Shown here in pieces: positions 12,882 through 18,800 of a stretch of 64,000 nucleotides of DNA (its first letter is position 1; each line of letters begins with the position of its first letter). A model generated the notes under the pieces. That model had not been told where the DNA came from, did no database searches, and saw only the letters and a list, made by a program, of their open reading frames with translations. Origin of the DNA: Lingula anatina (Eukaryota; Animalia; Brachiopoda); the NCBI GenBank assembly GCA_051362555.1, contig CM120649.1, forward strand, positions 19,730,567 through 19,794,566, in the 5' to 3' direction. Made by a program: the position numbers and the translations under genes.

Positions 12882-15800
12882 ATGGCTAACAGAAGGCTTC
12901 TCGAGGCTGCACGGCATGGAGATATAAAGAGTTTACAGGAACTGCTGACTGCCGGGGAGTGCAACATCAATGTCCGGGACTGGGTAATAACTTAAATTAC
13001 TCTACAACTAGTCACTTCATTGTCAAATTATTAAGGACCCGCTATTGCATTTACGGAACAAGATGAAAATATTCATCTAATTATTACAAACGACTCATTT
13101 CAAATTTTGTTTAAGAGAGTGGCTACACGTAAAAGATCTTGAAGCTCACGCTGGAATAGATTAGTGAAACTCAATCACTCTAAACAATTTATGCTGTCAT
13201 TCATTTATTGTCCTATATTACAGTACGGGTATATTTATTGTAAATATATTCCAACAGATAACTAATGGTCTTTGTGACCTCCCTGTCAGCATGTACACAT
13301 TCCTCTGTACCCAGGGGCAGTTAGCCCAATCCCAAGGGCCCATGTACTAGTGCATCTGTGACGATAGAGTCTGCCAATATCAAGGACTGAAATTATTCAA
13401 TTTAATGGCTCAGGAGGAGTAAACATGAATTAAAATGTGAAAAGAATTAAGTGTCATCCACCCCCACCCCCAGCCACCAGTGACGGCTAAACCCCAAGGT
13501 GCACAGAAATTCCCAAGTGTCCATGCATGAATATAATTCTATCAGTGCCAAAATTCAATCGTCTAGGAGGAGAAAGCAAATATTACACTATAAAAAGAAT
13601 TAATAATAACCAACTACCCCCAGGGACACCCTAACCTCCAGTTGCAGTAAAGTTCCAAAGTGCTCTGATGATAGGTCTCACAATACCCAAAGTGCGATTT
13701 TACTCACTCATGGTCTAGGATGAAATACCAGAAACTGCAATTAAAAAAAATCAGAGTCACCTCCCCCTCCCTCCCCCCCCCCCCACCCAAACTACATCCC
13801 CGGGACAGTCCAACCCCCAGGGGCACGGAAAATCCTAAATGCCAATGCATGCAATCAAACCTAAAAAAACGCACCCCCTTCAAATGGACCTGGATCCGCC
13901 CCTGGTCTTTCTGTGATGTAAATGGTCTATGCTTAATCACATTCTATGAACATGTCCAAAGTATGGGTATATAAACCACTTCACTGGGCTGTCCGGTGTG
14001 GCCACACGGAATGTGTTCAGCTTCTCTTTTAACACTGGGAGGATACCAGTATACAGGATGAGGTGCATGTAGAATAGTCTAAGCACAGCATTATGGGTTC
14101 ATTTACACTTGGGCATGACTATATACAGTACTGTCCACAATTTAGTGCAGAATAGTCTATGGACAGAATAATTAATTGCTACATTAAGTTTATTTTTTGT
14201 TTATAGTATTTATTCCAATGCATGTTAGCGAACAAACATATTTTTTATTTCGAAATAAATTATCATTGTTTAATCACATTGTTTGTACATATCCACAGTA
14301 TGGATGGACACCACTTTACTTAGCTACCCTTGAAGGCCACACACAATGTGTCCAGCTCCTCCTCCAAAACGGGGCGGATACCAGTATACAGGATGAGGTG
14401 AGTGTGGAATAGTCTTAGCACAGCATTATGGCTTCATTTACACTTAGACAAGTAGGAACTGAGCGGGGTTTACAACCCACAAACAAATTCACAAACTCGC
14501 TTACAAAAGAGCAGAGTAAAAGAATTGCCAAAAGGAAAAAACATTAAAATTTTAATTAGAATTTTGACTAACTGAATCATTGTTTTTGAACTGGCCTCGA
14601 ACCCCACGCCAAGGGGAAGAGGGACAGCTTCCGAGGCCTGTCAAACTTTAAAAAAAACGGACCCCCTTCAAATGAACCTGGATCCCTTCTGGTATTTATG
14701 TGATATGAATGGTTTATGTTTAATTACATTATATGTACACAACCTAAGAATGGGTATATACACCACTTCACTGAGCTGTCCGGTGCGGCCACACGGAATG
14801 TGTTCAGCTTCTCCCTTAACATTAGGCGGATACTAGTATACAGGATGAGGTACATGCAAAATAGTCAAAGCATAGCATTATGGGTTCATTTACACTTGGG
14901 CACGACTATATACTGTCCACAATTTAATGCAGAATATTCTTTGGACAGAATAATTGCCACATTAAATTTATTTTGTGTTTATAGTATTTATTCCAATGCA
15001 TGTGAGGGAACAAACATGTTTTTTATTTCGAAATAAAGTATCATTGTTTAATCACATTGTTTGTACATATCCACAGTATGGACGGACACCACTTTACTTA
15101 GCTACCCTTGAAGGCCACACACAATGTGTCCAGCTTCTCCTCCAAAACGGGGCGGATGCCAATATACAGAATAAGGTGAGTGCAGAATAGTCTATGGACA
15201 TCATAATTGCTACAATTGCGTGCGACTACATATTTTCCTGCAAATTATGTGAAGAAGATGGTCGAGGTTTACATTTTCACAGCGATCTTTCTTTTTTTTA
15301 AATAAGTATTAATTTCAACAAATCTGTGGGAACAAAATTAATAAGAATTGAGTGGGGTTTATATGCACCGACGATCGATTGTTAGTTTTAGTTTATCATT
15401 GATTATTTCAAAGCATCTATGGAAATAGAAGTATTTCGTCAACATGAATGATCACGTATCATCGTGTTGTTTCTACTAATCTACAGGATGGGAGGACACC
15501 ACTTCACTGGGCTGCCGATAACGGCCACACACAATGTGTCCAGCTTCTCCTCCAACACAGGGCGGATGCAAATATACAGAATAAGGCGAGTGTAAAATAG
15601 TCTATGGACATCATAATTGTCACAATTGCGTGCGACTACATATTTTCCTGCAAATTATGTGAGGAAGATGGTCGAGGTTTACATTTTCACAGCGATCTTT
15701 CTTTTTTTTTTTTTTTTTTTTTAATAAGTATTAATTTCAATAAATCTGTGGGAACAAAATTAATAAGAATTGAGCGGGGTTTATATGCACCGACGATCGA

Positions 15801-18800
15801 TTGTTAGTTTAAGTTTATTATTAATTATTTCAAAGAATCTATGGAAATAAAAGTATTTCGTTAACGTGAGTTATCACGTATCATCGTGTTGTTTGTACAT
15901 ATCCACAGTACGGGAGTACACCACTTCACTGGGCTGCCCGTAACCGCCACACACAATGTGTCCAGCTTCTCCTCCAACACGGGGCGGATACCAGTATACA
16001 AGATGAGGTAAGTGTAGAATAGTCTAAGCACAGCATTATGACTTCATTTACACAAAGGAACGACGATATATTGTCCGCAATTTATAAGTAAAAATTGGGC
16101 GGGGTTTACATGCTACGATGATCGGTTGTTTGTTTTAGTTTATTGCTGATTATTTCAAATCCTGTATGGACATAGACACATTTCGTCAGCATAAAGTATC
16201 ATATGTCATCGTGTTGTTTGTACATATCCACAGGTTGGGAGGACACCACTTCACTGGGCTGCCAGTATCGGCCACACACAATGTGTTCAGCTTCTCCTTC
16301 AACACGGGGCGGATACCAATATACAGGCTGAGGTGAGTGCAGAATAGTCTTTGGATAGAATATTTGCTACACTTGCATACGACTAATAATTTTCCTGCAA
16401 AGTATGTAAAGAAAATCATTGAAGTTTACATTTAATGCAATCTTTTTTTAATGACCATTTATTTCAACCCACGTGTGGGAAACGAAGGAAACATACAAAA
16501 TTAATAAGAACTGAGCGGGGTTTACATGGTGCGATGATCGATTGTTAGTTTTAGTTTATTATTGATTATTTCAAAGAATCTATGGAAATAAAAGTATTTC
16601 GTCAACGTGAGTTATCACGCATCATCGTGTTGCTTGTACATATCCACAGTGCGGGAGGACACCACTTCACTGGGCTGCCGGTAACGGCCACACACAATGT
16701 GTTCAGCTTCTCCTCCAACACGGGGCGGATACCAATATACAGGATGAGGTGAGTGCAGAATAGTCTTTGGATAGAATATTTGCTACACTTGCATACGACT
16801 ACATATTTTCCTGCAAAGTATGTAAAGAAAATCGGTGAAGTTTACATTTTAAAGCGATCTTTTTAATGACCATTTATTATTTCAACTCACGTTTAACACC
16901 CAAACCCAATATAGAGGTGCATTTCACATACTGAAGTGTCAAAAAATAAAAATGAATGAATTCAAAATTGTATTCAATATTTCAAAACATATATGTGTAT
17001 AGAACAAAAATCCACGACTGTCTCAACTGAAATTCAATTTTTAATTTTTACCATGTCTTTAACATTACGCAAAGAGCCCTATATGGTAACGTATGTTCCA
17101 AAAAACGTACGGTAACGTATGTTCTTTCCATTTAATTTTCATTTTTATGCCGCGTTCCGATATGTTTTTTAGTGGTTCAGTCATGGTAAATTAGACATGA
17201 CGTAAGGACGTTTTTATAAATATTTAAACTGTATCTCAAGGGGCTTTGCGTCATGGCTTATACTAGGTAACGTATGTTCCCTAGAAAAATTGTCAAAATG
17301 TTTCATTTTTTTCAAGTACTTGTGTGCAAGAGAAACAATGTTTTCTTTTGCTGACCGAACAATATATTGTGGTTCCGTGATAGTTTGACCATTTCTGATA
17401 TAATATTTGGATCATGAAGGGAAACATGTTTATTTAATGCTTATTTTACTGTCGGTAGGGTGTATTTTCCCCATTTTTTAATATTCTGTGACAAGCAAAC
17501 TTAGTCGCTCAAAAACAATTAACTGGTCTATACAGAAGATTATTATAATTTTTAGCAACGTTATACATGTAGGAGATAAATCAATAAACAAAACCAGTGA
17601 TGACGGAATTTTCAAAGTGAGTAGAACGTTTCACAGTTGGACGTTTTGTATTTGTGACAGTAACGTGTGTTCCTTTTTGGGGTTAAACGATGAATTTTTA
17701 AAAATTATTCATGGTTCCAGGAGAGTGAAACTTTTATACAAGCTTCATCATGTGGGACCCTAAAATAATCAAACACAGTTAGCAATCTGTGCAGTAAATA
17801 TTTTAATAACATGCTTGTGACATCAATTGCACCTCTATATTGGGTTTGGGTGTTAAGAATCCTGAAGAAACATTTTTTTTTAAATTTCAAAATGAATTAT
17901 TATTATTTAATCACATTTTTTGTACCATGGACATAATGATAGATGATGTCCATGTTTGTACATATCCACAGGGCGGGTATACAGCATTTCACTGGGCTGC
18001 CCGGTACCCACACACACAATAATCAATTGCTTCGATGATCGATTTAGTTCATTGCTGATTATTTCAAAACTTGTGTGGAAATAGACACATTTCGTCAACA
18101 TGAATTATCACGTATCATCATGTTGTTTGTACATATCCACAGTACGAGAGGACACCACTTCACAGGGCTTCCGGTAACGGCCACACACAATGTGTCCAGC
18201 TTCTCCTCCAACACGGGGCGGATATCAGTATACAGGATGAGGTAAGTGCAGAAACTTCTGTAGACATAATAATTGCTACAGTTGCGTACGACTACAATTT
18301 GTCTAGCTTCTCCTCCAATACGGGGAGAATACTGAATGAGGTGAGTGTAGAATATTGGTCTATGGAGAAAAATACGGCTACACTTGAGTACGACTACATA
18401 TTTTGTCCGCAATTAATGCTTTTTGCAAGTGAAGCTAGATTTGCATTTTCATAGCGATCTTTATACTTTTCATAATGACAATTTATTTCTACTCATGGGA
18501 ATTGACGTATTTTTTTGAAATTATTTTTGTATATGGGCCCGCTGATATCCTTTTCGTCAGTCTTATCTTAAGGGTGGCATAGAATCTTAAGCGTCTAATG
18601 TGGGTTAAAGCCGACATCGACTTTTTTTAATACTCGTCAGATGTACAAACTATGCAACCCTTAACATAAGGTATGGCTATCGAGCCCCTAGCTCTGACCT
18701 CTTGATGTTTATGAGAGGTCTTATTCTGAGGACAATGTAGATCCGTACCCTCTACCAGGGCGACAGATTGATTTTTCACAGATACTCACAGATAGTTCTC

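What the first reader, a model, noticed from the sequence alone, without database searches (positions are those of the whole stretch)
14299..16748. Ankyrin cassettes are mosaics with crossovers inside the exon
Seen: R1 and R2 share the 5' half ([13 protein letters not shown]) and the upstream intron. R2 shares its 3' end (ANIQNK) and downstream intron with R3. R1 shares its 3' end (TSIQDE) and downstream intron start (..gcacagcattatg.cttcatttacac) with R4. R5 and R6 share downstream introns. Inference: unequal crossover or gene conversion through the invariant CACACACAATGTGT(C/T)CAGCT core recombines the two variable halves, generating new repeats rather than only new orders.
Basis: partly seen in the sequence, partly recalled or inferred. 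Interest (0 to 1): 0.7.

Follow-up and report, generated by a model that had tools for sequence, protein, structure and literature searches.

The report
Mosaic ankyrin exons, brachiopod TIR gene
The one-repeat-per-exon ankyrin units of this gene, likely from a brachiopod (Lingula), are patchworks of one another, likely made by ordinary unequal crossing-over rather than at a special hotspot, in a gene family predicted to act as variable immune sensors.

Summary
The mosaic is real; the proposed hotspot is not supported. The stretch is the repeat array of a 13-exon, 595-aa gene model: ankyrin repeats (seven 99-bp phase-0 exons, R1-R7), a decayed Death domain, TIR and a coiled coil. Its relatives are Lingula anatina proteins. 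Trees of the 5' and 3' sides of the units reject each other (AU p 1e-75 and 1e-6). Another switch lies inside an intron (15794-15819), and the R6 switch is placed only within nt 4-53. The core is invariant at nearly all replacement sites but not shown to direct exchange. Duplicated blocks differ by 4-7%, and the R4-R5-R6 stretch is near-identical in a second study's sample, so these are likely old germline events. The mechanism, unequal crossover or conversion making chimeric repeats, is documented for Podospora HNWD genes. New here: the family (ANK-Death-like-TIR, variable at DARPin-like surface codons), which my paper searches did not find described. Immune function is inferred; pN/pS among the seven exons is below 1.

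The parts
12882..12983 (+). First exon, N-cap ankyrin repeat
   Evidence: (Ank E 0.004, below cut-off)
13962..14062 (+). Decayed ANK exon psi1 (101 nt, in-frame stop), type-A intron start behind it
14299..14397 (+). ANK exon R1
14369..14379 (+). Switch interval in R1 (exon nt 71-81), if R1 is the recombinant
14749..14849 (+). Decayed ANK exon psi2 (101 nt, stops); duplicated with R2 as block 14641-15217 of 13855-14439 (87.7%)
15077..15175 (+). ANK exon R2: R1-type up to nt 70, R3-type from nt 82
15147..15157 (+). Switch interval in R2 (exon nt 71-81), outside the core 15114-15135
   Evidence: one marker (nt 70) sets the left edge
15487..15585 (+). ANK exon R3, GC donor
15794..15819 (+). Switch inside intron I3: head like I2, tail like I5
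   Evidence: 47 sites, permutation p 1e-5
15909..16007 (+). ANK exon R4: R6-type upstream, type-A intron start downstream
16234..16332 (+). ANK exon R5
16650..16748 (+). ANK exon R6: R4-type upstream, R5-type from nt 54; switch within nt 4-53
16893..17856 (.). Insertion with 32-nt terminal inverted repeats that cuts the intron after R6
17972..18020 (+). 5' half exon, ends at exon nt 49 (inside the core)
18143..18241 (+).
18294..18340 (+). 3' half exon, begins at exon nt 44 (inside the core), with an 8-nt deletion
19206..19295 (+). C-cap exon
   Evidence: (spliced reads)
20072..20288 (+). Exon of a decayed Death-like domain
   Evidence: (family profile vs Pfam-Death region of P0131)
20986..21130 (+). 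Helical linker exon
21256..21659 (+). TIR domain exon
   Evidence: TIR_2 E 5e-23; best solved hits are TLR TIRs
21939..22075 (+). Last coding exon, coiled-coil-like, stop

Best explanation
These six exons are mosaic repeat units in the ankyrin array of an ankyrin-TIR gene with a likely decayed Death domain, likely from Lingula, and the mosaics likely arose by ordinary, old germline unequal crossover or gene conversion between misaligned units, with no special hotspot. Shown: exon structure, mosaicism, switch points at exon nt 71-81 (R1/R2), nt 4-53 (R6) and inside intron I3. Inferred: exchanges fall where neighbouring units are most alike, often the framework codons of the exon, which stay alike because the protein fold needs them; at least two and likely three or more exchanges happened; R2 is the likelier recombinant of the R1/R2/R3 set. 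All exons are 99 bp and phase 0, so any in-register exchange keeps the frame. Predicted function: a cytosolic sensor whose ankyrin surface varies and which signals through Death/TIR contacts.
For: 5' (170 columns) and 3' (78 columns) trees reject each other, AU p 1e-75 and 1e-6. The R1+R2 split runs from intron nt -93 to exon nt 70; R2+R3 from nt 82; R1+R4 from intron nt +20; R5+R6 from nt 54. One-switch gains of 20-32 for five triplets were reached by 0-2 of 400 single-tree simulations with blockwise rate variation, best of 210 triplets each. Intron switch p 1e-5. A at nt 70 is derived: both decayed exons have C and 35 of 38 extracted family repeats have His at codon 24. A paralogue carries an R3-type cassette (30 of 33 residues in the +1 frame), so the R3 combination is not unique to this locus. 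In core codons 13-20 pN is 0.015 and pS 0.143, as expected from protein constraint. The longest exact match between units overlaps the core in 8 of 21 pairs. Duplicated introns differ by 4-7%; run X3 of a second study holds 16004-16298 with 1 and 16356-16594 with 0 differences. Same mechanism seen directly in Podospora WD40 arrays (PMC2873952, passages).
Against: The nt 71-81 placement rests on one marker. The partition for the tree test was chosen after seeing the data. Exon-only triplet tests are modest (p 0.007-0.03 uncorrected for four, 0.07-0.5 for four). The core pS rests on one site (nt 54) plus one singleton. Both half exons break inside the core, a weak hint of fragility there. No listed contig confirms the R1 or R2 junction with few differences. 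No second copy of the psi-R1 unit's predicted upstream partner exon is in the window, so the physical history is incomplete. Immune role is untested, and pN/pS is 0.130/0.154 over all codons and 0.303/0.441 at surface codons: no sign of positive selection among these seven exons.
Confidence: 0.8

Rival explanations
1. One reading: the CA-rich core (nt 38-59) is a recombination hotspot, kept invariant as a crossover site, that recombines variable halves, perhaps in soma or at a high germline rate.
For: Core invariant at 21 of 22 nt in 7 exons; R6 switch interval overlaps it; both half exons break inside it, at nt 49 and 44; it overlaps the longest exact match in 8 of 21 unit pairs.
Against: R1/R2 switch is 3' of it and the I3 switch is intronic. 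Half exons are joins to intron sequence that destroy exons. Core residues vary in paralogues (codons 13, 14, 16 entropy 1.0-1.7 bits) and in the decayed exons. Blocks are 4-7% diverged and shared between studies.
Confidence: 0.08
2. No exon-internal exchange: whole-exon duplications plus independent intron replacement or deletion and convergent point changes mimic mosaics.
For: Exon-only signal is a few sites. The introns behind the decayed exons hold a type-A start followed by a type-B-like start, so a deletion could turn A into B without touching the exon.
Against: R2 and R3 share three derived exon sites (82, 94, 97) that run straight into the shared intron; exon-only compatibility test p below 0.001; single-tree simulations rarely reach the gains.
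Confidence: 0.07
3. Assembly artefact: haplotypes or paralogues were stitched together inside the repeats.
For: Multi-copy family; contigs break in the exons and none spans the stretch; pieces over the R2 junction carry 8-14 differences. No whole genome was on hand.
Against: Units differ by 4-15% so they are separable; X1 and X2 hold 16590-16715 with 0 differences (nt 54 only 12 letters from the end; one of them may be the window's source); X3 holds R4-R5-R6 pieces with 0-1 differences; the model is one open 595-aa frame.
Confidence: 0.05

Closest known systems
Podospora anserina HNWD (het-e, het-d, het-r) NLRs with high internal conservation (PMC2873952, PMC12222747; passages read)
   Same: Highly similar tandem repeats with a few hypervariable positions; unequal crossover and conversion give chimeric repeats and changed repeat number.
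   Different: WD40 in a NACHT protein, whereas here ANK exons separated by introns, Death-like and TIR, no NTPase domain. There instability and recognition are shown by experiment; here neither is.
Brown-algal ROCO LRR and NB-ARC-TPR genes (PMC3341825, PMC11378527; passages read)
   Same: One repeat per exon, inactivated exons in introns, intra- and intergenic recombination traced through introns, candidate immune receptors, somatic recombination proposed but not reported found.
   Different: LRR/TPR repeats with ROC-COR or NB-ARC; inverted exons on the other strand there, none here. The passages I saw do not map breakpoints inside exons.
Tetrahymena 90-bp-exon LRR genes (PMC6564038; passages read)
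   Same: Fixed-length, single-phase exon arrays scrambled by ectopic recombination.
   Different: Thousands of genes, phase 2, linked to a retrotransposon; here about a dozen known proteins, phase 0.
DARPins (PMC8229355 passages; PDB 6mol alignment)
   Same: 33-residue near-consensus repeats between N- and C-caps; variable positions match those varied in the DARPin hit.
   Different: Engineered; the position before the hairpin Asp varies in the DARPin but little here.
MyD88-type Death-TIR adaptors (recalled)
   Same: Death-like domain followed by a TLR-type TIR.
   Different: N-terminal ANK array and C-terminal coiled coil; the Death domain is below Pfam detection; TIR closer to TLR1/2/6/15 than to MyD88.

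Membership tests
Repeat array with high internal conservation evolving by unequal crossover | Repeats about 80-100% identical at DNA level | tested here: met
   6-20 differences in 99 nt
Repeat array with high internal conservation evolving by unequal crossover | Chimeric units, incongruent histories along the unit | tested here: met
Repeat array with high internal conservation evolving by unequal crossover | Repeat number varies between paralogues | tested here: met
   14 internal repeats extracted from P0001, 3 from P0003, 7 here; NCBI models may be incomplete
Repeat array with high internal conservation evolving by unequal crossover | Repeat number or order varies between alleles of this gene | tested here: inconclusive
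   short contigs do not span the array
Repeat array with high internal conservation evolving by unequal crossover | Positive selection at hypervariable codons | tested here: inconclusive
   codons 1, 3, 8, 11, 12, 33 have 2.4-3.6 bits over 38 repeats, but pN/pS below 1 among 7 exons with only 3.6 synonymous sites at surface codons
NLR / STAND receptor | NACHT or NB-ARC domain | tested here: not met
   none in window exons or 8 paralogues
ROCO | ROC-COR tandem | tested here: not met
Motif-directed recombination hotspot | Breakpoints confined to the motif | tested here: not met
   2 of 3 mapped switches lie outside nt 38-59; the third only overlaps it
Somatic diversification system (VLR-like) | New arrangements within one animal | not testable with these tools
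   no long reads; shared pieces between studies argue against a high rate
MyD88 | Death plus TIR without a sensor array, orthology to MyD88 | tested here: not met
   ANK array present; TLR TIRs score above MyD88; no tree built
Lingula ANK-(Death-like)-TIR-coiled-coil family | Same repeat type, middle domain and TIR | tested here: met
   post-ANK part 37-67% identical to 13 proteins, best P0001 67%; named L. anatina

The most novel reading that the evidence does not exclude
Lingula carries a natural DARPin-like library: a family of cytosolic receptors in which single-exon ankyrin cassettes, variable at binding-surface codons and reshuffled within and between genes (and perhaps by exon skipping), are wired straight to a Death-TIR signalling module, an animal counterpart of fungal HNWD and brown-algal exon-shuffled receptors without an NTPase domain, with individual-specific repertoires under selection.
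Probability: 0.3. Interest if true: 0.65.

Novelty: new member of a known kind. Interest (0 to 1): 0.4.

Why it matters
The recombination itself is what tandem arrays do and is known from fungal, algal and ciliate repeat genes. The value is the setting: diverged introns record the breakpoints, which intronless arrays do not, and the gene belongs to a brachiopod ANK-Death-like-TIR family that public annotation names only as assorted ankyrin proteins. If the family is a variable sensor repertoire, it adds an animal case of repeat-shuffled intracellular receptors that can be tested with long reads.

Tried and rejected
Core as hotspot: rejected, see above. Positive selection among the seven exons: not found. 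No whole genome held, so paralogous introns could not be compared. No RNA holder listed for the stretch; four raw RNA runs were laid instead: most reads are 90-95% alike, so joints such as R2 to C-cap (9 reads), R6 to C-cap (17 reads) and 'goes back' joints may come from paralogues or alleles and are not taken as exon skipping at this locus; use of the R3 GC donor is not shown. Bins without contig cover in X1, X3, X4 and summed contig depths are not used as presence/absence or copy number. Protein atlas gave no hit for the middle domain. The structure job had not finished, so no model or fold search backs the Death-fold or surface assignments. The representative search was dominated by unrelated ANK arrays; of its 150 rows, 8 proteins were looked up: the 5 that matched beyond the repeats are L. 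anatina, the 3 others insects or amphioxus matching mostly by ANK. Topology alone needs removal of 2 of 7 units for congruence, so it does not say which units are recombinant. Earlier findings: none by place or sequence. Paper searches for the family or its recombination (listings only, plus passages of PMC11463336) found no description; surveys of Lingula and bivalve TIR proteins by Gerdol and colleagues (recalled, not seen) may list this architecture. No supplements were read.
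Full report
What the locus is. The finding lies in a gene on the + strand from 12882 to 22075. Thirteen exons with AG acceptors and GT donors (GC after R3) give one open frame of 595 residues: an N-cap, seven internal ankyrin exons of 99 bp in phase 0 (Pfam Ank E 2e-10 to 4e-14), a C-cap, a middle domain, TIR (TIR_2 E 5e-23) and a coiled-coil-like end. The TIR exon found 3 proteins among 133 candidates, all named Lingula anatina; a search with the C-terminal part of one found 7 among 2964, all L. anatina, 6 with the same longest-contig length, which suggests a cluster; more came. 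The organism is thus inferred to be a lingulid brachiopod (for lineage). A profile of the middle domain from 11 proteins aligns with the Pfam Death region of another L. anatina ankyrin protein, P0131 (hhalign probability 95, E 3e-8), so it is likely a decayed Death domain; Pfam does not detect it directly. The best solved relatives of the TIR are TLR15/2, TLR1 and TLR6. Spliced RNA reads join ANK exon ends to the C-cap and the C-cap to the next exon at the predicted GT-AG sites, but most reads are only 90-95% alike, so they show that the family is expressed with this exon plan, not how this copy is spliced.

The observation. The array is larger than described: R7 at 18143, two decayed exons before R1 and R2, a 5' half exon at 17972 and a 3' half exon at 18294, and an insertion with 32-nt inverted ends at 16893-17856. 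The block that R1 and R2 share starts well upstream, at 13855 and 14641, and includes the decayed exon (87.7%).

Is it recombination? I aligned 95 nt of upstream intron, the exon and 45-60 nt of downstream intron for R1-R7 (the decayed and half exons were left out of the tests). Of 62 informative sites, the split R1+R2 against the rest runs from intron nt -93 to exon nt 70; from nt 82 it is replaced by R2+R3, R1+R4 and R5+R6. Neighbouring sites are far more compatible than shuffled ones (p 2e-4, floor of 5000; exon only p 2e-4 to 8e-4). The maximum-likelihood trees of the two sides reject each other (AU p 1e-75 and 1e-6); the cut was chosen after looking, so these p-values are generous. In 400 simulations on one tree with strong blockwise rate variation, taking the best of 210 triplets each time, gains as large as those of five observed triplets were reached 2, 1, 1, 0 and 0 times. 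Mosaicism is therefore real. Within the exon alone the signal is thinner: four of eight triplets give uncorrected p 0.007-0.03, four give 0.07-0.5.

Where are the switches? For R1/R2 that is not so: nt 70 (the N of QNG) is shared by R1 and R2 only and lies 3' of the core, so the switch is at nt 71-81 (15147-15157 in R2). This rests on one site, but the state is derived: both decayed exons have C and 35 of 38 extracted family repeats have His there (38 of 39 repeats caught by a core pattern, which misses divergent ones). For R6 the R4-like upstream markers end at nt 3 and the R5-like markers start at nt 54, an interval that includes but does not single out the core. Intron I3 is I2-like in its head and I5-like in its tail, with the switch at 15794-15819 (47 sites, p 1e-5), so exchange is not confined to exons. 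The one point in favour of the core is that both half exons break inside it (nt 49 and 44), but these are joins to intron sequence that remove exons.

Which unit is the recombinant? Topology alone needs two removals. With branch lengths, one of R1/R2, one of R4/R6/R3 and one of R5/R6 likely changed partner. The TSIQDE end with its intron start is shared by R1, R4 and both decayed exons and Thr28/Ser29 is the family majority (28 and 23 of 38), so it may be ancestral. Exchange between genes cannot be excluded.

How old, and is it an artefact? Duplicated introns differ by 4-7%. Of four contig sets laid, X3, from a second study, holds 15832-15974, 16004-16298, 16289-16385, 16356-16594 and 16772-16890 with 0-1 differences each; X1 and X2 hold 16590-16715 with none. 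So the R4-R5-R6 stretch is shared and germline. The listed pieces over the R2 junction carry 8-14 differences and do not confirm it; 921 pieces were not shown.

Mechanism. Shown: fixed-length phase-0 cassettes and exchanged segments. Inferred: misaligned units cross over or convert where they are most alike. Between units with unlike intron types this is often the framework part of the exon (the longest exact match overlaps the core in 8 of 21 pairs), which is conserved at replacement sites (pN 0.015, pS 0.143 on few sites). A one-unit duplication between neighbours X and Y gives X, a Y-5'/X-3' chimera, Y, with the intron doubled; R2-R3-R4 and R5-R6 fit this geometry. At protein level the variable codons are 1, 3, 8, 11, 12 and 33 (2.4-3.6 bits), the positions that also vary between repeats of the DARPin hit 6mol; such positions form the concave binding face (PMC8229355, passages; numbering recalled). 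Codon 33 of one exon and codons 1 and 3 of the next belong to one beta-hairpin (established ankyrin structure; no model obtained). A crossover anywhere in nt 38-81 thus keeps one hairpin-plus-helix strip intact and changes its neighbour; it makes new exons but mostly new orders of binding strips. Function as a sensor is inferred from the TIR, the Death-like domain, clustering and surface variability; against it, or at least not for it, pN/pS among the seven exons is below 1.

Comparison and verdict. Chimeric repeats from unequal crossover and conversion were seen directly in Podospora HNWD mutants (PMC2873952), and such arrays are known with ankyrin repeats in fungal NLRs (PMC12222747); one-repeat-per-exon arrays with dead exons and intra- and intergenic recombination are described in brown algae (PMC3341825, PMC11378527) and Tetrahymena (PMC6564038); unequal crossover is the general explanation for domain-repeat turnover in animals (PMC5100051). 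All were read as passages only. The locus works like these systems but is not an NLR or ROCO gene. Nine searches, six aimed at this family, found no description of it, but the library lacks most subscription papers. Verdict: real mosaic, ordinary mechanism, no hotspot; new member of a known kind, interest 0.4, mainly for the family.

Noticed in passing
window:15586-15587: R3 has a GC donor; whether it is used is not shown.
   Followed up: partly
window:17972-18020 and 18294-18340: A 5' half and a 3' half exon flank R7; both break inside the CA-rich core.
   Followed up: partly
window:16893-17856: Element with 32-nt terminal inverted repeats (97%) in the intron after R6; RNA reads of 90-99% likeness cover it.
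   Followed up: partly
window:14063-14298 and 14850-15076: Introns behind the decayed exons hold a type-A intron start followed by a type-B-like start, perhaps the trace of a lost unit.
   Followed up: partly
P0131 (L. anatina): Same cassette type fused to an intact Death domain without TIR, so the cassette is used by more than one architecture.
   Followed up: partly
P0155 residues 1-60: The public model reads its first cassettes in the +1 frame, likely a mis-annotation.
   Followed up: partly
window:7621-8092/10207-10696 and 9249-9565/10699-11015: Two local duplications (85% and 96%) upstream of the gene.
   Followed up: no
window:7131-7589 (-): Thr-rich frame on a GTA trinucleotide tract, mucin-like.
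   Followed up: no
window:28200-30650 (-): Exons of an aldo-keto reductase (Pfam E 3.5e-11); a 44-bp tandem array at 26335-26869 lies nearby.
   Followed up: no
window:36747-38732 (+): 661-aa open frame with no Pfam hit.
   Followed up: no
window:52174-54543 (+); 50316-50696 (+); 47951-48914 (-): Long C2H2 zinc-finger exon; DDE_3 transposase fragment; alpha/beta-hydrolase exons.
   Followed up: no
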